21,138 nucleotides of DNA from a virus: UHGV virus genome UHGV-0785298; one strand, given 5' to 3'. The notes beneath the pieces were generated by a model. The model did no database searches, was not told the DNA's origin, and saw nothing but the letters and a program-made list of their open reading frames with translations. A program made the translations under genes and the position numbers. Numbering within the stretch: the stretch's first letter is position 1; the number at the start of each line of letters is the position of its first letter. Positions 13,394 to 21,138 of the stretch are shown here, one piece after another.

Positions 13394-13561
13394 TTACTTT
13401 TTCTTCAGCTCGTCCAGTTTGGCTTCGATCTGGTCCAGAATCTCTTTGCCTTTCTGAACAATCACTTCACCATCTTGCGCGTGTTTACGGAAGACCAGAG
13501 CACCAGCGATGAAGCCGACAACCGCGCCAGGAAGCGCATAAACCAGCAGATCTTGTAACAT
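13394..13561 (-). CDS. small single-pass membrane protein (not in the ORF track)
   Basis: Hand translation from ATG 13561..13559 to TAA at 13396..13394: MLQDLLVYALPGAVVGFIAGALVFRKHAQDGEVIVQKGKEILDQIEAKLDELKKK (55 aa), one TM helix and a charged helical tail. A GAGGA Shine-Dalgarno lies 9 nt upstream, inside a hairpin arm. Confidence 0.5.
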   Translation of the reverse strand: MLQDLLVYALPGAVVGFIAGALVFRKHAQDGEVIVQKGKEILDQIEAKLDELKKK

Positions 13562-13597
13562 GATAATATCCTCGCTTTATAGGCGAGGATATTTATA
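13562..13597 (-). promoter_or_regulatory. TATAAATA (T4 late-promoter-like octamer) followed by an 8-bp hairpin that contains the downstream gene's Shine-Dalgarno
   Basis: The minus strand reads TATAAATA at 13597..13590, immediately followed by stem ATCCTCGC / GCGAGGAT (13567..13589) whose 3' arm contains the GAGGA used by the small ORF starting at 13561. This is the only TATAAATA in the window. Confidence 0.3.
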
Positions 13598-14833
13598 TCA
13601 GCGTTTCAAGAGTGCCATGAGGTTGACGCTGCTGGACTTCGACTTGTCCTCAACCTTGCGCACAGGCATCTTCAGGTTCGTACATACCTCGGATGGTTCC
13701 CAGCGCGTACCCTTTTGCAGGTGCCAGATATGCAGAGGAACACCAGTCTCAAAGAACACAGGCATCTTCCACTTCTGGACGCCTGGAACGTGCCCTGCAG
13801 GAGCCTTTTCGCACAACAGGGTATCTGGTAGCCAGAGCGAACGGGCTTCCCAGAGCGCTGCGCAGGAGTATTCAGGCCAGACGCGTTCCATGTAGTCTAT
13901 CTCATCCCAGGTACGCTCTGCGTCCCACCCGATGTAACGGGTATTCTTCAGTCGGAAGAATTTCTTCAGCCAACAAGCACCGGAGGTTTCAAAGTTCAGG
14001 CGGTTGATGAACGTCAGGTGCCCGAACTCAGCCACACAATCTTGGAACGCCTGCTCAAGGTCGGCCTCAAGGATGTCACACTCTTCATCCGTGATAGGAC
14101 AACCGTTGATCTTTTTCTTCCCGTGTTTAGTCACCCAATCGTCACGGTTGGACAAGAACGCCGCTCCATTACGGTTGGACTCGCTTCCATCACGATCACG
14201 CAACATGAAGCCAGGGACGTCAATGGTGTATTCGTTCCCGAAGACCATGTTCAGGGCTTCCAGGAAGTTCCAGGCGCTCAGGCGACCGAAGTATTTCCAG
14301 GACATCGCCGTGTCCCACAGCTGGGTGAATTGTTCTGTCTTATCGATACACACCAACATCCCACGGAAAGCGTCATATTGAGTACGGCCAGCCAGCCAGT
14401 CAATATAGGACTGAACACACGGAATCATCTTGGACTTGCGGTAGCGACAGTCGGTATCGAATCGCATGCGATCAAAGTTCAGATTATACCAATCAGAGAA
14501 GCGCTGCATCTCTTCCTTAGACTGAGGCGGCACAGGGAACTCACTGTAGATAGTCCACGGCCCGACAGCGTTATAGCAACAACCCCACAGGAATGCCATC
14601 CAGATCTTGCGCTCGACTTTCTGTTCGAGGCTGATACCTTCAGTGACTTCAATCGCATAGTCCATCAGACGCATCTGCTGGTTGTGCTCTTCTGTGTAGG
14701 ACAGCGCCTCCACCCAAGCCTTGAGCAAGTACATGCGATTCTCAGGCTTGCGATAATCAACAGCCAGGTCAATCGGGTACTTCCATTCAGTCGGAGGCGT
14801 ATAGCCCGTCGGCATTTTAGATAGATGCGTCAT
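13598..14833 (-). CDS. hypothetical protein, Trp/Cys-rich, enzyme-like
   Basis: 411-aa ORF, ATG at 14833 with GAGGAAG upstream; it overlaps the end of the upstream gene by 17 nt. No motif recognised by eye. Confidence 0.6.
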   Translation of the reverse strand: MTHLSKMPTGYTPPTEWKYPIDLAVDYRKPENRMYLLKAWVEALSYTEEHNQQMRLMDYAIEVTEGISLEQKVERKIWMAFLWGCCYNAVGPWTIYSEFPVPPQSKEEMQRFSDWYNLNFDRMRFDTDCRYRKSKMIPCVQSYIDWLAGRTQYDAFRGMLVCIDKTEQFTQLWDTAMSWKYFGRLSAWNFLEALNMVFGNEYTIDVPGFMLRDRDGSESNRNGAAFLSNRDDWVTKHGKKKINGCPITDEECDILEADLEQAFQDCVAEFGHLTFINRLNFETSGACWLKKFFRLKNTRYIGWDAERTWDEIDYMERVWPEYSCAALWEARSLWLPDTLLCEKAPAGHVPGVQKWKMPVFFETGVPLHIWHLQKGTRWEPSEVCTNLKMPVRKVEDKSKSSSVNLMALLKR

Positions 14834-15173
14834 CTTTCGCTTCCTCTTCAGGAGCCAGCTGAATATCTTCCGGCTTCACGAACCCCATCGGACGTTCCCA
14901 CATATCGACAAAGCGACGGTCAGCGGTCACGAACCACAGACGGGCTGCGGTGTGGGTCTTACTCGAGATGAACATCTGAGCGTTCGTCTGGGTACGGAAC
15001 GGAGCAGCCTGCAACCACTTGCCAAAGTCTTTGGACGACGGATTGGCATTCAGCTGGAACTGAGGGATGACGCAGTTCTTTTCAGGAATCAGACGCACAG
15101 CCGTAATGTGCTTGGCGTTTCCGGTGTAGTCAATTGCGACAGCCACAGCATCGCGAGGGATTTGAATTTTCAT
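14817..15173 (-). CDS. hypothetical protein
   Basis: The ORF track extends to 15308, but that would overlap the upstream small membrane gene. The ATG at 15173 (MKIQIPRD...) forms an ATGA overlap with that gene's stop and has AAGGA upstream; 118 aa. Confidence 0.5.
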   Translation of the reverse strand: MKIQIPRDAVAVAIDYTGNAKHITAVRLIPEKNCVIPQFQLNANPSSKDFGKWLQAAPFRTQTNAQMFISSKTHTAARLWFVTADRRFVDMWERPMGFVKPEDIQLAPEEEAKDDASI

Positions 15174-15367
15174 TTTGGTTCCTTGAATATTTTGTAACCA
15201 GCAGCGCCGATAGACATCACCGCGCCAATACAGTACATCACAGTCACGTTCAACTTCTCTGAGGTTGTTAAGTCCAGAGGGGTGAAATGATAGGCTAGGG
15301 CAGTACACATTGAAACGGCTGCCATAACCAGACCAATGAACAACAGATAATTAGACAACCGTTTCAT
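15170..15367 (-). CDS. small membrane protein (two predicted TM helices)
   Basis: ATG at 15367, 2 nt after the stop of the 531-aa gene (the track start at 15373 is a GTG); hydrophobic stretches LLFIGLVMAAVSMCTALAY and VMYCIGAVMSIGAAGY. Confidence 0.5.
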   Translation of the reverse strand: MKRLSNYLLFIGLVMAAVSMCTALAYHFTPLDLTTSEKLNVTVMYCIGAVMSIGAAGYKIFKEPK

Positions 15368-15369
15368 GA

Positions 15370-16965
15370 TCACCCCTTCTTCATCAGGTCAAGGAGAGAG
15401 CGCGACGCTGCCTTCGTTGCTTCTGGCTGGGCGCTCGCCTTGGTTTTAGTTTTGGATGCCTTCTGTGGCTTCTCAGGGACTCTGTGTGCCAAAGGGTTGC
15501 TACCTCTTATCTTGCGCAGCATGGGATACTGCTCGCAATATTTATGGAATTCATCTTTTGAAAGATTAAGCCCAACAAAGTCAATAACAAAGTCACCGAT
15601 AACCGCCAACGGGGCGTCAAAATATTTCAGGATGTTCCAGCCGACGGCCTTCACACCGTTTCCATTAGCAGCCTTGGCAATGAAGAGTTCATGATTGGAA
15701 TCCGGTTCCAGCTCATACCCAATAGCAGAATATTCGCCCATGATCTTGACATGATCCTTGGTGTATTGATCGTTTCGTCCCCAGCCAGTGTCCTTCGCCG
15801 CCTTACCAGAACGACCGATGATACGCTTGTCGTAATCTTCCCGTGCCTGATAGATGAATGAGATGAATGCCATGTTGTTGAACCCCAAGTCCTGGTGTAC
15901 GAACTTAGGACGCCACCGATGGCTCTGCATCATAGGTTCCCCTTCCAATATGATGGTAGAATCCTTGTATTTCCCTTTGATGTATTTCACCAATGAATTG
16001 GCCATCTCAGAAGTCTTGAGAGTGGAGTGGATGAAGTCCATGGAAGTCCAAGAAGCCAGATCTGATTTGTTGGACACTGTATACTTGCCGATGAACACCA
16101 GATTGATTTCCTTGAACCAAAACCCAACCTGGATCATCTTCTTGTCGAATTCGTATTCTATGAGTTCTGGCTCATATTTGGTTCTCAACCACTCAAGGAA
16201 TTGAACGACACGAGTCCCCTTTCCCGTTCCACTTGTCCCGCGAATAACGACAATACCCGGCGTCACGCTAGAATTTATCATAGTCATAAAACGTTTGTCC
16301 TCTTTGGGAATCCAACCATCTTTAAACATGGCGATCATATTACGAAAGACGCTCTCATCGCCCTTTAGATTACGATACTCTGTGTCCAGTAGTTTAGAAT
16401 ACCACAATCCGATAGATTTGTAACCACATCCTCGTTTTGGCATACAGGTAGGATTCACAGTACCGCCGTTGTTCACCCATCTATCATAGATCCTACGGGC
16501 GTCCTTCCAAACCCACCAATAACCATTTGAAACCATGAATGGGTAGGGAGAATTACCCCTGTTCTCCTTTATTGATTTTATTACACGTTCCCGGTATTCT
16601 GGATCATCCCAAGGATTTATACCAGATTTGTATTTCTTGCCAGTCCTAGCCAACGCCGCCTTAAATTGGTTTGGTATGATAGAATTGTCTCCTCCCAATT
16701 TCAGGTTCAGGCATAATGGGTCCAACAGTAACTCTTCCGTAACAATAATAGACTCCAGGTCGGATGCCTCCAACCTGGTTTCAAACTTTTCTATTATCGT
16801 CTTTAAGAATTCAGAAGCGGGGTGAGATTCCAACAACCTTTTGATGATAACACCAGAACCCATATAGGGGTCTTGTTCGGGGGTGCATGAACAAGACCGA
16901 ATCCCGACGTAGAATCTCCCAGTTGGGACATGAGTTATCCTATATGTGTAATGGTAGCGAGCCAT
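15370..16965 (-). CDS. GIY-YIG nuclease domain fused to a P-loop NTPase/kinase-like domain
   Basis: 531 aa. N-terminus YHYTYRITHVPTGRFYVGIRS...DPYMGSG fits the GIY-(10-11 aa)-YIG spacing and the 'YMGSG' signature of Seg-like phage GIY-YIG nucleases. Mid-protein Walker A IVVIRGTSGTGKGTRVV and a Walker-B-like DSTIILEGEP. Lys-rich C-terminal tail. The ATG overlaps the upstream stop (TAATG). Confidence 0.55.
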   Translation of the reverse strand: MARYHYTYRITHVPTGRFYVGIRSCSCTPEQDPYMGSGVIIKRLLESHPASEFLKTIIEKFETRLEASDLESIIVTEELLLDPLCLNLKLGGDNSIIPNQFKAALARTGKKYKSGINPWDDPEYRERVIKSIKENRGNSPYPFMVSNGYWWVWKDARRIYDRWVNNGGTVNPTCMPKRGCGYKSIGLWYSKLLDTEYRNLKGDESVFRNMIAMFKDGWIPKEDKRFMTMINSSVTPGIVVIRGTSGTGKGTRVVQFLEWLRTKYEPELIEYEFDKKMIQVGFWFKEINLVFIGKYTVSNKSDLASWTSMDFIHSTLKTSEMANSLVKYIKGKYKDSTIILEGEPMMQSHRWRPKFVHQDLGFNNMAFISFIYQAREDYDKRIIGRSGKAAKDTGWGRNDQYTKDHVKIMGEYSAIGYELEPDSNHELFIAKAANGNGVKAVGWNILKYFDAPLAVIGDFVIDFVGLNLSKDEFHKYCEQYPMLRKIRGSNPLAHRVPEKPQKASKTKTKASAQPEATKAASRSLLDLMKKG

Positions 16966-17270
16966 TACACAGCATCCTCAATACGCCAGCTCACGCCGCC
17001 CAGCCAAGGTGCCCAGAACACAGCAACCTGCGGACGACCGTTTTCTTCAAACTTAACTTTATACTGGTCGTCGAAGTTATAGAAGATTTCATCCGATTCA
17101 GAGCGCTGGCCGATCTTCACCAGTACATCATGAAGAGCCTTGGCTGCGCCGATAGGAGTCGGAGTCTCCTGCTGGCGAATGAAGTTGTTCACATGGTTAA
17201 TCACGCCATCCATGTCGCTATCACCGGAACGCTTGTCGGGGATTTCCCCGAACTTATTCTGATCTTGCAC
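16965..17270 (-). CDS. hypothetical protein
   Basis: 101-aa ORF starting at GTG 17270, with a strong AGGAGGA Shine-Dalgarno 4-5 nt upstream and 9 nt after the HAD gene stop. Confidence 0.45.
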   Translation of the reverse strand: MQDQNKFGEIPDKRSGDSDMDGVINHVNNFIRQQETPTPIGAAKALHDVLVKIGQRSESDEIFYNFDDQYKVKFEENGRPQVAVFWAPWLGGVSWRIEDAV

Positions 17271-17279
17271 GATGTCCTC

Positions 17280-18059
17280 CTATCGGACGTATTGATAATG
17301 ACTAATCAGGCGGTTCACCACTTCGACAATATTGCGGTTCAGGAAGTCGAAGTGATTCTGACCTTCTACTGGTTTAATATAAAGCATGTCTTCCGAATTC
17401 GAAAGATCCAGTTTTTCATAATTACCCTGAGGAACAAAGATGACAAAGATGTTGTTCAGACCACACGGCTCGACATACTTCGGATTGTCATCAATCAGGA
17501 CATCGCCAGCCAGCAGATGCTTTTCGTCGGTGCTGACAAACCCGTTGAAGATACCAGGGAACTTATCATAGACAAACTGACGCTTGCTGCGCTCGTGTTC
17601 CGGCTCGCACTTCGACACCGCGATGAATTCAACATTGTCGAAATCTTCAAGCAAGATATCCTTCAGATTTACCAGGAACTCGTAAGCACCGGGGAGCGGG
17701 TTCATCTTGGCGTACAAGTCAGGGCGACGCCACCAATCCATAGGATCGTTACCGCTTGGCACACGTTGTTTGTGCATCCCCAATTGGACTTCATGGTATA
17801 GCCACGCCGGATGCGCACGTTCACGCATCAGAATAGCCAGGTCGCCAGCATGGGACATATAACACTCTTTGGTAATCGGCTGGAACTGGTATGACTTATG
17901 TTCCCCCGTAGCGATAGCAGCGGCGGCGATGTTCTCTTCGTTGAACCACTGCACCCAAGGGGAGAGGCTGTCGACCAACGTCAGGTCAACATCCACGAGG
18001 ACGCGATACAGACCACCGACCTTTGATTTCATATCATAGATACAAACCAGGTTGTTCAT
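17280..18059 (-). CDS. HAD-superfamily phosphatase, 5'(3')-deoxyribonucleotidase-like (NT5C-like)
   Basis: 259 aa. HAD motif I VLVDVDLTLVD (DxDxT); C-terminal KFPGIF...DEKHLLAGDVLIDDNPKY matches the NT5C motif III/IV region (K...D.LIDD.P); PLPGAYEFLVNL is also NT5C-like. The ATG overlaps the upstream stop (ATGA). Confidence 0.6.
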   Translation of the reverse strand: MNNLVCIYDMKSKVGGLYRVLVDVDLTLVDSLSPWVQWFNEENIAAAAIATGEHKSYQFQPITKECYMSHAGDLAILMRERAHPAWLYHEVQLGMHKQRVPSGNDPMDWWRRPDLYAKMNPLPGAYEFLVNLKDILLEDFDNVEFIAVSKCEPEHERSKRQFVYDKFPGIFNGFVSTDEKHLLAGDVLIDDNPKYVEPCGLNNIFVIFVPQGNYEKLDLSNSEDMLYIKPVEGQNHFDFLNRNIVEVVNRLISHYQYVR

Positions 18060-18397
18060 TTGTCTTCCTCAACTTTATCGTAGCCTGTAGCAACACACTG
18101 TTCTTCGGTACAATCTGCATACAGAACGACGGAGGCCTGCTTCACGTAGGTGATGCAGTGGTAAGTTTCGTCTTCCTGGACGGAATCGTCATAGTTGCAG
18201 ACAGTTTGGAGCGGACCCGGAGTAGTGTTGTCCAGTGCTGCATGCGCCTTGATGGTGTCTTCCATCTTGGACACGGCCTGCTCATTGGTGAACGTCGGCG
18301 CGTCAAGGTCTACAGTAGATGCAACGTCCAGAAGGGTGGAACACGCAGTGGTAGAGAAAGCCAGAGCGCACACCAGAAGAATCTTATTGAGTTTCAT
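18056..18397 (-). CDS. putative lipoprotein
   Basis: ATG at 18397 with AGGTGA upstream (the track start at 18406 is a GTG). Signal peptide with lipobox-like LVCALAFSTTAC; the mature part carries four further Cys. Confidence 0.45.
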   Translation of the reverse strand: MKLNKILLVCALAFSTTACSTLLDVASTVDLDAPTFTNEQAVSKMEDTIKAHAALDNTTPGPLQTVCNYDDSVQEDETYHCITYVKQASVVLYADCTEEQCVATGYDKVEEDK

Positions 18398-18426
18398 TTC
18401 AATCACCTGTTTGTCAAAGGGTTAAC

Positions 18427-18446
18427 AGGGGGAATTATATCCCCCT
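18427..18446 (-). promoter_or_regulatory. GC hairpin with a TATAAT loop between the polymerase and lipoprotein genes
   Basis: Stem AGGGGGA / TCCCCCT (7 bp); the loop reads TATAAT on the minus strand; TTCAATAAA lies just upstream on the minus strand, as in the family A hairpins. No U-tract follows on the minus strand, so it is not a canonical terminator for the coding strand. Confidence 0.3.
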
Positions 18447-18459
18447 TTGGTTTATTGAA

Positions 18460-21078
18460 TCAACCTTTCTTCTTTTGCATCATGGCAAGAAGGTTCACAC
18501 GGCGCTTGTGTGACCAGCCGACCACGTCGAGGATAGACTGAATCGGATCAATGAAGGACTTCTCAAAGGCCGCCTGATAATCCACCCATTTGCCCAGACC
18601 AAGCTCCTCAGGGAAGAACTCAGGATATGCGAAGTAATTCTGGCCGAATGGGTTGCCTGGCTTCAACAACACCATCTGTACCTTATCACCCGACTCGATC
18701 ATCGGTAGACCCAGATCTTCGTTCTTCTCAACCAGACGGTTGTAGCCCACACACGCCTTGGCAGCAAAATGAGCACCAGAGATGAACGATCCGTCAGCAG
18801 CCACACACTTCTCTATGTCGGACACGCCGGAAGCCTTGGCGATATCGTCTACAGAGAGTTTCATGTACTCCTCTTTGTACTGGGAGATGAGCGTCTGTAC
18901 TTCCTCTTCGGTGCCGAGTAGGATCTTCTCATAACACTTGACAAGACGCTCACGACACCATTCCGGCGTGGTGGACTTGCGGGCTTCCAGACCTTTGAAC
19001 TTAATCTTCGGCTTCTCGTACTTGATACCCTCACTGTCGTACACGGCCATGGCATACATCTTCTTGGCTCGCCAGACAGCGGCTGACGCAATGACCTCAC
19101 GCTCCCATACCATGCGCTGTTCAAATCCGTTCATGGTGTTACACAGAAGCTGTGCCCACTCATTGGTCTTCGGCTGGTAGTTGTCTTTGATCCATTGGTC
19201 GATATTATCAACCATAGCATGATGGTCAGTAACATCAGGCCACAACTGCTTGACAAGACGCTCAATGCAGATGTAGTTGGAGTCGGTATCCCCTGCGATG
19301 ACGAAGTCCTGGCCTGTTGTACCACACAGCTTGTTCAGATAGTCATCAGTGTAACGCTTGTTCCACTTGTTGATCAGCTGACCGGATGTGGTGATGGCTT
19401 CGGCAATGTTGAGGTTGAAGTACTCTTTGAACCAGACGTTTGAGATCGCGCCATAACCTGCGTTCATCAAGATCTTCAGACCTTGCTGTAGGGTGTCTTG
19501 AGCAACGCCCAGATCTTCCCACTTCTTCATCACTTCGGTCAGGGCATCAAGATCAATGTTCTTGTGCTCTTCATACCACTCTGGGTCATAGTAGCGAGAC
19601 TTCATGGCAGACTCAAGATGGAAGTCGCCCTTCGACATCTCTTTACACCAGCCAGCCCACTGCTCATACTTCAGACCCTTGGCCTTCTCTACTTTACGGT
19701 CGCTGTAGATACCACGCATGATTTCAGACAGGAACGACATCTTCTCGTTGCTGAAGAATTGAACGTTCGGCGTGAACGACACGTTGTAGCGGCGCAGGGT
19801 TTCAAAGTGGAACTCACCCAGGGCAACCAACTCATCAACAACCTGCAGGCGTTCGTCAATCGCACGCAACAGCTTGTCGTGAAGGGCTTTCATCAACCGA
19901 CGTTTGTGCATCGGCGTTGCCATGTTATTCATCTGAGCAGCCAGCTCTTCACACATAGCCTCAATAATCTCGCGGCGCTGGTGTTTGTCGCCAACGATAG
20001 TCTCTGGACCGAGGTTGTACTGCTGAATGATGTGAGGATACAGGGAGTTCAAATCTTCCGAGAAGACCCAGAAGTAGATTCCTGGTGTCACATCCATGAC
20101 GTATGCACCCTCAAAGTCGGTCGGACCATCGTATACACGCTGGATCTTAGGCACTATCCCCTTCTCATACAGACGATAGTAGCACATGGCCAGCCACGGA
20201 GACACAGTGCCCAGACCGTCTTCATAGTTGGACTTGGTGCGGTACGCAAGGACGAACATCAGCTGGAGCAGGCGCAGCTTCTGTTCAAGTCGCCATACCA
20301 GCTTAACGTCTTTGATACCATATCGGGTGTGTTTGCAGTAGTCGTTGAAGTACAGATCAAAGAGCGACTTGCTCTCACTGTAGTCCATCTTCTTCTCACC
20401 CAGCTCACAATACGCAATCCAGTCAAGAGAGTAGCGTTCACGGGTGGTGTACGTGTGTTTCTTGTAGATCTGCATATAATCGAGCATAGGACAGCCCACG
20501 AACTGATACGTCGTGATATCGCCCTTCTTATCGCGAATGATACGCTTCTTAATGATACCCCAAGGACTGAGGCGCGACGTTTCAGCCTCACCCAGAACCT
20601 GATTCATGCGCTCAACAAGATAAGGGCTATCAAACGTCTCAATGTTCCAGCCTGTCCAGCCATCAAACTGACGCTGCGACCAGAAGTCTAGGAAAGATCG
20701 CAGCAGATCCTGCTCGGTGACAAACTCCTTGTACTCCACCTCAAGTCCACCGATCTCCGCGTCTTCTGGATCGTATCTGAACTTCGCACGATCCTTCGCG
20801 CACGGCATACCCCACACCATGAACTTATTGGTCGCCATGTCCTGAAGCTGGATCAGGGTAATGGGGAACGCCGCATTCATGTCTTGGGTGATCTTGCCGT
20901 TGCTGTCAATGATAGGGAACTTATCAGTGACGTTGTTGCTGATAAAGGAACTGGGAAAGTGCTCACGGATGAAGTCATGGTTGGCCAGTACCTGCTGATG
21001 GAAGCGGCGAATGCGCGCCTCATTCCCTTTGAACGTCTGCTGCTCAATGGTTGGGTGAGGGAATGGACCTTTGGTCAT
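18460..21078 (-). CDS. DNA polymerase, family B (T4 gp43-like)
   Basis: 872-aa ORF. Polymerase motifs DLNSLYPHII (A), KILMNAGYGAISN (B), AGDTDS (C). Exonuclease motifs GWNIETFDSPY (Exo II) and YGIKDVKLV (Exo III). C-terminal MVLLKPGNPFGQNYFAYP matches the T4/RB69 gp43 tail as recalled. The ATG at 21078 forms an ATGA overlap with the stop of an upstream ORF. Confidence 0.95.
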   Translation of the reverse strand: MTKGPFPHPTIEQQTFKGNEARIRRFHQQVLANHDFIREHFPSSFISNNVTDKFPIIDSNGKITQDMNAAFPITLIQLQDMATNKFMVWGMPCAKDRAKFRYDPEDAEIGGLEVEYKEFVTEQDLLRSFLDFWSQRQFDGWTGWNIETFDSPYLVERMNQVLGEAETSRLSPWGIIKKRIIRDKKGDITTYQFVGCPMLDYMQIYKKHTYTTRERYSLDWIAYCELGEKKMDYSESKSLFDLYFNDYCKHTRYGIKDVKLVWRLEQKLRLLQLMFVLAYRTKSNYEDGLGTVSPWLAMCYYRLYEKGIVPKIQRVYDGPTDFEGAYVMDVTPGIYFWVFSEDLNSLYPHIIQQYNLGPETIVGDKHQRREIIEAMCEELAAQMNNMATPMHKRRLMKALHDKLLRAIDERLQVVDELVALGEFHFETLRRYNVSFTPNVQFFSNEKMSFLSEIMRGIYSDRKVEKAKGLKYEQWAGWCKEMSKGDFHLESAMKSRYYDPEWYEEHKNIDLDALTEVMKKWEDLGVAQDTLQQGLKILMNAGYGAISNVWFKEYFNLNIAEAITTSGQLINKWNKRYTDDYLNKLCGTTGQDFVIAGDTDSNYICIERLVKQLWPDVTDHHAMVDNIDQWIKDNYQPKTNEWAQLLCNTMNGFEQRMVWEREVIASAAVWRAKKMYAMAVYDSEGIKYEKPKIKFKGLEARKSTTPEWCRERLVKCYEKILLGTEEEVQTLISQYKEEYMKLSVDDIAKASGVSDIEKCVAADGSFISGAHFAAKACVGYNRLVEKNEDLGLPMIESGDKVQMVLLKPGNPFGQNYFAYPEFFPEELGLGKWVDYQAAFEKSFIDPIQSILDVVGWSHKRRVNLLAMMQKKKG

Positions 21079-21138
21079 CTTTCCATCTTTCCACCCGGCG
21101 GAGACGTCGGGTCTGGTCGGCGTCTCTCAAGGCACACA
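21075..21138 (-). CDS. 3' end of an upstream gene (partial, unknown function)
   Basis: The frame one nucleotide offset from the polymerase frame is open from the window edge and reads ...VCLERRRPDPTSPPGGKMER-stop, with the TGA sharing nucleotides with the polymerase ATG (ATGA). Only 20 codons are visible. Confidence 0.35.
   Translation of the reverse strand, partial: VCLERRRPDPTSPPGGKMER

What the first reader, a model, noticed from the sequence alone, without database searches (positions are those of the whole stretch)
15370..16965. GIY-YIG nuclease domain fused in-frame to a P-loop NTPase domain
Seg-like GIY-YIG homing endonucleases normally carry a C-terminal DNA-binding domain and are free-standing. 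Here the GIY-YIG module (YRITHVPTGRFYVGIRS...DPYMGSG) is followed by about 430 aa containing a Walker A (GTSGTGKGT) and a Walker-B-like hydrophobic strand, and the gene is translationally coupled to both neighbours (TAATG upstream, stop-2nt-ATG downstream). I do not recognise this architecture; it could be a nuclease/kinase acting on nucleic acid ends, a DNA-modification kinase, or a domesticated homing endonuclease.
Basis: partly seen in the sequence, partly recalled or inferred. Interest (0 to 1): 0.6.

Follow-up and report, generated by a model that had tools for sequence, protein, structure and literature searches.

The report
Homing endonuclease fused to DNA-base kinase
A selfish DNA-cutting gene has become joined, in one reading frame, to the phage enzyme that phosphorylates a modified DNA base, and the joined gene appears to have moved between related phages as a unit, replacing their ordinary kinase gene.

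Summary
Window 15370-16965 (minus strand) is one 531-aa ORF. Residues ~236-530 are Pfam HMUD2, a 5-hmdU DNA kinase (E=8e-152). The gene sits where Salmonella phage ViI has gp243, a proven DNA-base kinase of thymidine hypermodification, three genes from a gp247-like serine:DNA transferase (89% identical).

The fusion is not a sequencing error. It is in frame in 29 phage genomes and in metagenomic proteins down to 37% identity. All fused kinases form one clade, and the nuclease half is under purifying selection (dN/dS 0.07-0.24).

The endonuclease plus kinase core behaves as a ~1.5-kb mobile cassette:
- Closest relatives carry the kinase alone, or an unrelated GIY-YIG gene at the same junction.
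- Flanks are 88-100% identical; the cassette is 40-60%.
- In three lineages the 40-aa tail belongs to the local resident kinase.

Best reading: a homing endonuclease joined to its host gene, using the kinase's start site. A conserved internal Met with a Shine-Dalgarno-like site may still allow kinase-only translation. Domestication is not excluded. I found no paper describing the fusion. Verdict: new variant of a known kind, moderate interest.

The parts
15370..16965 (-). Whole fused gene, 531 aa: Seg-type GIY-YIG homing endonuclease joined to a 5-hmdU DNA kinase 2
   Evidence: ORF list. PHROG 15209 matches almost the whole length, E=0. Full-length homologues P0001-P0007.
16681..16965 (-). GIY-YIG catalytic domain, aa 1-95 (Y8, Y19, G21, R23, R64, E71, N87)
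16525..16680 (-). Basic, low-confidence linker of the endonuclease, aa 96-147. Homologues carry NUMOD3 repeats in this position.
   Evidence: pLDDT 48-66. NUMOD3 found in 15 of 51 Seg-like homologues. PHROG homing-endonuclease families match aa 98-233.
16270..16524 (-). C-terminal domain of the endonuclease, aa 148-232, presumed DNA-binding. Motif GYWWVWKD..MPKRGCGYKSIG..GDESVFRNM..FKDGWIPKED. This is the most conserved part of the N-terminal half.
   Evidence: Many invariant columns across fused proteins at 37-95% identity. The same motif ends the free-standing endonucleases P0063 and P0109. The DNA-binding role is inferred, not tested.
16279..16302 (-). Junction: GAGGA (16298-16302), Met227 (16285-16287) and the invariant Met229 (16279-16281). 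A possible retained internal start for a kinase-only product.
   Evidence: Met229 is invariant in all fused homologues. GAGG lies 9-11 nt upstream of a junction Met in every lineage. Predicted SD pairing energy is -5.8 to -6.5 kcal/mol, similar to the annotated starts. Coordinates checked. Use as a start is inferred.
15508..16269 (-). 5-hmdU DNA kinase core (HMUD2), aa 233-486, with Walker A at 16213-16239
   Evidence: Pfam PF18747, 505 bits against a cut-off of 25. 47% identical to ViI gp243 over its full length. Foldseek hits are P-loop kinases. dN/dS 0.03-0.12.
15373..15507 (-). Kinase C-terminal tail, aa 487-531: PLAHRVPEK, a Lys/Pro/Ser-rich linker, then SLLDLMKKG. It lies outside the exchanged cassette and belongs to the resident (Agtrevirus-type) allele.
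   Evidence: 100% identical to tails of unfused kinases whose cores are only 42-43% identical. Nucleotide identity to EspM4VN and Ag3 returns to 93-98% from about 15490 downwards. pLDDT below 50 for aa 506-521.
15490..16965 (-). Exchanged cassette (endonuclease plus kinase core), about 1.48 kb, bounded by the DUF7254 stop codon and the conserved PLAHRV-coding region
   Evidence: Sliding identity against EspM4VN and Ag3 is 88-100% outside and about 40-60% (or gap) inside. Protein identities of flanks versus cassette.
16965..17270 (-). Upstream gene (DUF7254, 101 aa). Its stop overlaps the start of the fused gene. In endonuclease-free relatives the same TAATG starts the kinase itself.
   Evidence: Pfam. 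EspM4VN and ViI layouts.
13598..14833 (-). Amino acid:DNA transferase (ADDT / aGPT-Pplase2), counterpart of ViI gp247 serine:DNA transferase. It uses the kinase's product.
   Evidence: Pfam PF18724, E=7e-60. 89% identical to ViI gp247. Function of gp247 from PMC8989533.

Best explanation
The gene encodes one polypeptide in which a complete Seg-type GIY-YIG homing endonuclease (aa 1-~232: catalytic domain, basic linker, C-terminal DNA-binding domain) runs with almost no linker into the phage's 5-hmdU DNA kinase 2 (aa ~233-531, at the position of ViI gp243). [quoted passage not shown] The endonuclease half is a selfish element that entered the DUF7254/kinase junction. It then lost its own stop codon and now uses the translation start that the kinase uses in endonuclease-free relatives. 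The endonuclease and the linked, strongly diverged kinase core move together as a ~1.5-kb cassette. In mixed infections the nuclease presumably cuts the endonuclease-free kinase locus of a related phage. Repair from the endonuclease-bearing genome then replaces the resident kinase, with crossovers at the DUF7254 stop codon and in the conserved PLAHRV-coding region. That would explain why each recipient lineage keeps its own 40-aa tail. A conserved internal Met with an SD-like site may also allow a kinase-only product. Shown here: domain identities, conservation of the fusion, purifying selection, the cassette boundaries and at least three independent tail swaps. Inferred: nuclease activity, the cleavage target, homing as the transfer mechanism, and internal initiation.
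Against: No nuclease activity, target site or homing has been shown for this protein or for any close relative. The I-TevI Arg27 helix has no aligned counterpart, so activity rests on family-conserved H/R23 and R64. No member of the fused clade has lost or degraded its endonuclease half. That is unusual for a purely selfish endonuclease and would also fit a function useful to the phage. The cassette is only modestly more similar than its flanks in some comparisons (KpS110). ADDT is also unusually conserved, so strong constraint rather than transfer could explain part of that pattern. A ~40% identical kinase core is far more divergence than ordinary co-conversion produces. It implies that the cassette came from a distant donor lineage.
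Confidence: 0.6

Rival explanations
1. Domesticated bifunctional enzyme. The endonuclease module no longer homes and is kept because it helps the phage. For example, its DNA-binding domain might load or direct the kinase onto DNA and so set which thymidines are hypermodified. Alternatively, the nuclease might attack unmodified host or competitor DNA, as the GIY-YIG enzyme T4 EndoII does, while the kinase half marks the phage's own DNA.
For: The fusion is monophyletic and has been kept down to 37% identity, with every family-invariant nuclease residue intact and no decayed copies. dN/dS of the endonuclease half is close to that of the kinase. The most conserved stretch is the endonuclease's C-terminal domain, which abuts the kinase with no linker. 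T4 EndoII and a 5hmC-specific GIY-YIG restriction enzyme are among the top structural neighbours. Other 5-HMUDK fusions with functional partners are known (PMC8989533).
Against: About 92% of phage records with this kinase lack the module (322 of 351), and ViI gp243 is active on DNA without it. Distribution within genera is patchy, with sharp breakpoints and repeated tail swaps. That is the signature of a mobile element rather than a vertically kept adaptation. An unrelated GIY-YIG endonuclease gene sits at the same junction in Ag3, which marks the site as a homing target.
Confidence: 0.2
2. Two proteins in practice. The open frame is an incidental loss of the endonuclease's stop codon. The working kinase is made mainly from the retained internal start (Met227/Met229), and the 60-kDa fusion is a minor or non-functional by-product.
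For: Met229 is invariant, and a GAGG lies 9-11 nt upstream of a junction Met in all lineages. Its SD energy equals that of the annotated starts. In Ag3 the endonuclease and kinase are separate ORFs that overlap by only 8 nt, so a one-step frame change could create a fusion.
Against: The GAGG comes from codons of the conserved ED/DE residues that also end free-standing homologues, so it may not be selected as a ribosome-binding site. Other internal codons have equal or stronger SD matches. No lineage has regained a stop codon over a long divergence. The 5' start keeps the SD and stop-start overlap that drive kinase translation in endonuclease-free relatives.
Confidence: 0.15
3. Artefact: two adjacent genes joined by a sequencing or assembly frameshift.
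For: Ag3 has the two-gene layout at this site. Some records annotate a 497-aa product.
Against: The frame is open in 29 independent genomes and in seven metagenomic proteins with many substitutions and indels. The Ag3 endonuclease is a different gene, 22% identical. The 497-aa calls simply miss a GTG start; the frame upstream is intact.
Confidence: 0.01

Closest known systems
T4-type Seg endonucleases (SegA-G; Pfam PF19835 SegE_GIY-YIG), free-standing GIY-YIG homing endonucleases
   Same: N-terminal GIY-YIG domain with the YIGxH/RS...DxYxGSG...E...N signature, a basic linker and a C-terminal DNA-binding region. Inserted between conserved phage genes, patchy among relatives, and sitting at recombination boundaries.
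   Different: It has no stop codon of its own and is translated in one frame with the downstream host gene. The window protein itself scores below the Pfam cut-off (13.8 against 25 bits). Nuclease activity and homing are untested.
Salmonella phage ViI gp243 (5-hmdU DNA kinase, 'kinase 2', Pfam HMUD2)
   Same: Same Pfam family, same position between the DUF7254 gene and the small membrane-protein gene, and same partner gene, gp247. All conserved kinase motifs and the C-terminal tail are present.
   Different: It carries a 232-aa endonuclease at its N-terminus. The core is only 47% identical even though the neighbouring transferase is 89% identical. It belongs to a separate clade that contains only fused proteins.
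Shigella phage Ag3 gp199 (SegD-like endonuclease) plus gp200 (kinase)
   Same: A GIY-YIG homing endonuclease gene at exactly the same DUF7254/kinase junction.
   Different: The endonuclease is unrelated (22% identical). It is a separate ORF overlapping the kinase by 8 nt in another frame, and the kinase is the ordinary Agtrevirus allele.
Inteins and intron-encoded homing endonucleases
   Same: A homing endonuclease is expressed from within or along with its host gene, so that it cannot be lost without affecting an important gene.
   Different: There is no splicing domain or ribozyme. The endonuclease stays attached to the N-terminus of the host enzyme (no intein or Hint match).
Domesticated endonuclease-derived nucleases (ICP1 Odn, the HK97 HNH-terminase partner, T4 EndoII)
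   Same: Homing-endonuclease-type nuclease modules recombined with other domains, or recruited for the phage's benefit (PMC10055350). T4 EndoII is a structural neighbour.
   Different: Here the partner is a DNA-modification enzyme, and the distribution still looks like that of a mobile element.
Other 5-HMUDK fusions (SP10 gp186 kinase with aGPT-Pplase; metavirome fusions with PLP enzyme or transferase)
   Same: They show that the kinase tolerates being fused to another domain (PMC5889632, PMC8989533).
   Different: Those partners are enzymes of the same pathway fused at the C-terminus. None is a nuclease.

Membership tests
GIY-YIG nuclease superfamily | 'GIY' tyrosine in strand 1 and 'YIG' Tyr-x-Gly in strand 2 | tested here: met
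   Y8, Y19 and G21 align with I-TevI Y6, Y17 and G19. Y19 and G21 are invariant and Y8 is present in 50 of 51 Seg-like homologues.
GIY-YIG nuclease superfamily | Metal-binding Glu (I-TevI E75) and structural Asn (I-TevI N90) | tested here: met
   E71 and N87 align with E75 and N90. Both are invariant in 51 of 51 homologues.
GIY-YIG nuclease superfamily | Catalytic Arg in helix 1 (I-TevI R27) | tested here: inconclusive
   The I-TevI helix carrying R27 aligns to a gap. The Seg subfamily instead conserves H/R at position 23 (51 of 51) and R64 (44 of 51). Both are Arg here, but no structure-based assignment was possible.
GIY-YIG nuclease superfamily | GIY-YIG alpha/beta fold | tested here: met
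GIY-YIG nuclease superfamily | Pfam GIY-YIG or SegE_GIY-YIG match above the gathering score | tested here: not met
   The window protein gives only PF19835 at 13.8 bits against a cut-off of 25. Its homologue P0007 passes at 28.9 bits. Of 51 profile hits, 37 match PF19835 and 15 match PF01541 at E<=1e-3.
Free-standing homing endonuclease (functional class) | A separate ORF between host genes | tested here: not met
   There is no stop codon between the endonuclease and the kinase in any of the fused homologues.
Free-standing homing endonuclease (functional class) | Sporadic presence among close relatives, with sharp boundaries at the insertion | tested here: met
   29 of 351 records carry it. 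Empty and differently occupied sites exist in Agtrevirus. Breakpoints and tail swaps are sharp.
Free-standing homing endonuclease (functional class) | Site-specific cleavage of the endonuclease-free allele and biased inheritance | not testable with these tools
   This needs nuclease assays and phage crosses.
5-hmdU DNA kinase (Pfam PF18747 HMUD2; ViI gp243 type) | Profile match above the gathering score over the whole domain | tested here: met
   505 bits against a cut-off of 25, profile positions 2-298 of 298.
5-hmdU DNA kinase (Pfam PF18747 HMUD2; ViI gp243 type) | P-loop kinase fold with an intact Walker A | tested here: met
   GTSGTGKGT. Foldseek hits are gluconate, thymidylate and adenylate kinases. 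pLDDT is mostly 85-97.
5-hmdU DNA kinase (Pfam PF18747 HMUD2; ViI gp243 type) | Genomic association with an amino acid:DNA transferase and other hypermodification genes | tested here: met
   ADDT lies three genes downstream and is 89% identical to ViI gp247. The same association holds in distant fused loci L005-L007.
5-hmdU DNA kinase (Pfam PF18747 HMUD2; ViI gp243 type) | ATP-dependent phosphorylation of 5-hmdU in DNA | not testable with these tools
   Shown for ViI gp243, which is 47% identical (PMC8989533), but not for any fused member.

The most novel reading that the evidence does not exclude
The fusion is a working two-part machine rather than a parasite attached to its host gene. In this reading the endonuclease's DNA-binding domain directs the base kinase to particular sequence contexts, and so helps decide which ~40% of thymidines become hypermodified. 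Alternatively, the kinase domain's affinity for 5-hmdU DNA directs the nuclease to freshly replicated DNA of competing phages. That would link DNA modification and inter-phage competition in one polypeptide.
Probability: 0.15. Interest if true: 0.75.

Novelty: new variant of a known kind. Interest (0 to 1): 0.5.

Why it matters
Both halves belong to known families, so no new chemistry is implied. The arrangement is what is unusual. A free-standing homing endonuclease has lost its own stop codon and taken over the start site of the gene it invaded, and it has stayed intact in that state over deep divergence. It appears to carry a replacement allele of a DNA-hypermodification enzyme between phage genera.

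The case is naturally replicated: close relatives show empty, differently occupied and fused sites. That makes it usable for asking how selfish nucleases become fixed to host genes, and whether the fusion is addiction or domestication. It could also show how homing reshuffles anti-restriction DNA-modification pathways in Ackermannviridae, a family used in phage therapy and biocontrol.

There is a practical point too. The gene is annotated inconsistently (homing endonuclease, endonuclease, guanylate kinase, P-loop kinase 2, phosphotransferase), and the wrong label has spread to kinase-only proteins.

Tried and rejected
- **Word-indexed protein search with the N-terminal 233 aa:** it returned nothing. 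This looks like a limit of the index, because the exhaustive profile search then found 22,800 relatives.
- **Profile of the N-terminal half against PDB sequences:** no meaningful hit.
- **NCBIfam:** no match.
- **Promoter and terminator scan of 13400-18600:** counts were no higher than in shuffled sequence, so I made no claim about an internal promoter.
- **A 497-aa N-terminally truncated form** (PHROG 15209, PMBT18 annotation): rejected as a decayed nuclease. The frame upstream is intact and a GTG start overlaps the upstream stop.
- **End-healing polynucleotide kinase / nuclease reading:** rejected. The P-loop domain is HMUD2, and no PNK-type family matched.
- **Sequencing-error reading:** rejected on conservation of the frame.
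- **Finding the cleavage site by comparing fused and endonuclease-free junctions**: no obviously disrupted conserved block could be identified.
- **First submission of the N-terminal alignment to the representative search:** It was rerun without that row.
Full report
**1. The observation**

Window 15370-16965 holds a single 531-aa ORF on the minus strand. The GIY/YIG-like stretch is at aa 8-38, and the Walker A GTSGTGKGT is at aa 243-251, which is window 16213-16239.

The gene is tightly packed between its neighbours:
- The upstream DUF7254 gene ends in a TAA that overlaps the ATG (TAATG), with GAGGA nine bases before the start.
- The next gene starts 2 nt after the stop, or overlaps it if the GTG start is used.

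**2. The genome**

The region is ~94% identical in DNA to Escherichia phage vB_EcoM-ZQ1 and ~90% to Dickeya phage LIMEstone1. Both are Ackermannviridae, subfamily Aglimvirinae. Gene order matches Salmonella phage ViI: PolB, DUF7292, an NT5C-like gene, DUF7254, the kinase, a small membrane protein, one ORF, then the amino acid:DNA transferase.

**3. The C-terminal half**

- Residues 236-530 match Pfam PF18747 (HMUD2, '5-hmdU DNA kinase 2') at 505 bits against a cut-off of 25, covering the whole profile.
- This half is 47% identical to ViI gp243 over gp243's full length and occupies the same position.
- ViI gp243 was shown in vitro to transfer one phosphate from ATP to the hydroxymethyl group of 5-hmdU in DNA. 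The resulting 5-PmdU is the substrate for amino acid:DNA transferases such as ViI gp247 (PMC8989533; PMC5889632).
- The gp247 counterpart in the window (13598-14833) is 89% identical to ViI gp247. The phage very probably makes the ViI-type base 5-NeOmdU.
- The AlphaFold model of this half is confident, and its structural neighbours are P-loop kinases.

**4. The N-terminal half**

Pfam does not call a GIY-YIG domain in the window protein. The best match is PF19835 at 13.8 bits, below the 25-bit cut-off. Three other lines of evidence agree that it is one.

- **Profile search.** A profile of the N-terminal 235 aa of the fused proteins retrieves 22,800 proteins from 1.84 billion representatives. 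Of 51 top hits scanned, 37 match SegE_GIY-YIG, 15 match GIY-YIG and 15 carry NUMOD3 motifs.
- **Profile-profile alignment.** Comparison with I-TevI gives 92.5% probability (E=5e-7). It aligns Y8, Y19, G21, E71 and N87 with I-TevI Y6, Y17, G19, E75 and N90.

One hallmark could not be placed. The I-TevI helix that carries Arg27 has no counterpart. This Seg subfamily instead conserves H/R at position 23 and R64, and both are Arg here.

Residues 96-232 belong to the endonuclease, not to the kinase:
- PHROG homing-endonuclease families match aa 98-233.
- Two free-standing proteins, P0063 (288 aa) and P0109 (281 aa), align over the whole 232 aa. They end a few residues after the same KRGxGY...FKxGWIPxED motif.

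So a complete endonuclease is fused, with almost no linker, to the first strand of the kinase. Unfused kinases begin MAKIIV..GTSG at the equivalent of residue ~235.

**5. The fusion is real, old and constrained**

- Three independent searches each find exactly 29 phage records with the full-length gene.
- The protein database adds full-length relatives at 95, 81, 78, 64, 64, 37 and 39% identity. All are in frame, and many columns are invariant in both halves.
- The two most distant relatives lie in phages with a different gene order, but again directly beside an ADDT gene.
- In a neighbour-joining tree of kinase domains, all fused proteins form one clade that is sister to all unfused ones. The fusion therefore arose once.
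- dN/dS is 0.07-0.17 for the GIY-YIG domain, 0.14-0.24 for the rest of the endonuclease and 0.03-0.12 for the kinase. The nuclease half is not decaying.
- Records that annotate a 497-aa product simply miss a GTG start. In PMBT18 the frame continues to a GTG that overlaps the upstream stop.

**6. The cassette moves**

At this one locus, close relatives show three states:
- Kinase alone, starting at the very same TAATG (EspM4VN and ViI).
- An unrelated SegD-like GIY-YIG gene (22% identical) as a separate ORF overlapping the kinase by 8 nt (Ag3).
- The fusion (the window, ZQ1 and LIMEstone1).

Against EspM4VN and Ag3, flanking proteins are 91-97% identical but the kinase core is only 40-41%. At the DNA level, identity is 88-100% down to the DUF7254 stop. 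It falls to about 40-60% between 16965 and ~15490, then returns to 93-100%.

Kinase identities across the phage collection are bimodal: 29 records at 80-95%, 322 below 60% and none between.

The clearest result concerns the last ~40 residues. In three fused lineages this tail is 92-100% identical to the tail of an unfused kinase from another lineage, while the cores are only 42-46% identical. The three lineages are the window/P0001 group, the P0003 group and P0004. The endonuclease plus kinase core has therefore entered at least three different resident backgrounds, each time with a crossover near the conserved PLAHRV motif.

Fused alleles also recombine with each other. ZQ1 is 100% identical to the window in the endonuclease half but 90% in the kinase core, and one patch (15540-15780) is only 58-80% identical to LIMEstone1 and PMBT18.

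Nuclease genes sitting at boundaries of genetic exchange is the pattern described for phage homing endonucleases in general (PMC10055350).

**7. Most likely mechanism**

A Seg-type homing endonuclease invaded the DUF7254/kinase junction, lost its stop codon and captured the kinase's translation start. The endonuclease and its linked, presumably cleavage-immune, kinase core now spread together. The nuclease would cut endonuclease-free alleles during mixed infection, and recombinational repair would copy the cassette in. The kinase half continues to serve hypermodification.

Nuclease activity, the target site and homing itself are inferred.

A junction methionine is invariant (Met229). In every lineage a GAGG lies 9-11 nt upstream of it or of the adjacent Met227, with predicted SD pairing equal to that of the annotated start. 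A kinase-only product is therefore possible. The GAGG also encodes conserved Glu-Asp residues, though, so this point stays suggestive.

**8. Rival readings**

- **Domestication (about 0.2).** It is favoured by the long persistence of the fusion, the intact catalytic residues and the absence of any decayed or endonuclease-free member of the fused clade. It is disfavoured because 92% of phages with this kinase lack the module, because ViI gp243 works without it, and because the distribution looks mobile.
- **Two proteins in practice (about 0.15).** This is compatible with the main model.
- **Sequencing error.** Excluded.

**9. What is already known**

- The LIMEstone1 paper lists the gene as the free-standing GIY-YIG endonuclease F-LimXI (PMC3296691).
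- The PP35 paper lists the orthologue among the hypermodification kinases (PMC6336734).
- The hypermodification papers describe other kinase fusions but none with a nuclease.
- Full-text searches for the combination found nothing.

I therefore rate it a new variant of a known kind. The parts and their individual functions are known. The conserved, mobile, in-frame union of the two appears undescribed in the literature I could search.

Noticed in passing
window 15373-15507 (kinase tail) and 13598-13640 (ADDT C-terminus); proteins P0001-P0062: Every HMUD2 kinase, fused or not, ends with PLAHRVP, a ~20-25-aa Lys/Pro/Ala/Ser-rich low-confidence linker, and a short terminal motif (SLLDLMKKG, NVLAIMLRK, SVFDLF, SLSGFFGN). 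The transferase ends similarly (SSSVNLMALLKR). From memory, this resembles sliding-clamp-binding peptides such as the T4 gp43 C-terminus or the bacterial QLxLF motif. It could tether these post-replicative modification enzymes to the clamp. The hypermodification paper does not mention a clamp.
   Followed up: partly
L001 (Shigella phage Ag3) 2781-3467: An unrelated SegD-like GIY-YIG endonuclease gene (22% identical, Pfam GIY-YIG E=4e-8) occupies exactly the same DUF7254/kinase junction as a separate ORF overlapping the kinase by 8 nt. Two different endonucleases have therefore invaded this one site independently.
   Followed up: partly
window 15540-15780: Inside the kinase core, one patch is only 58-80% nt identical to LIMEstone1 and PMBT18, while the rest of the gene is about 85-100%. 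ZQ1 is 100% identical in the endonuclease half but 90% in the kinase core. This points to recombination among fused alleles.
   Followed up: partly
window 18460-21078 (minus strand): The family-B DNA polymerase ORF is 872 aa and is preceded by an in-frame stop, whereas the ViI gene is 2997 nt (145128-148124). The Pfam exonuclease-domain match starts at profile position 115. The polymerase is probably split near its N-terminus, as in LIMEstone1, where introns carrying endonucleases interrupt PolB. The window ends at 21138, so the rest could not be seen.
   Followed up: partly
database records for this gene family: Annotation is inconsistent. The same gene is called homing endonuclease F-LimXI, endonuclease, guanylate kinase, P-loop nucleotide kinase 2 or phosphotransferase. 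A kinase-only protein of Dickeya phage Coodle (P0027, 309 aa, HMUD2 only) is labelled 'putative homing endonuclease F-LimXI'. Several records and PHROG 15209 start the protein at Met35 because they miss a GTG start.
   Followed up: yes
L005 9462-10670 and L006 9584-10771: In the distant phages that carry the 37-39% identical fusion, the cluster also contains a PF18723 (HMUDK_hel) protein two genes beyond the transferase. No ORF scanned in the window matched that family at E<=0.01.
   Followed up: no
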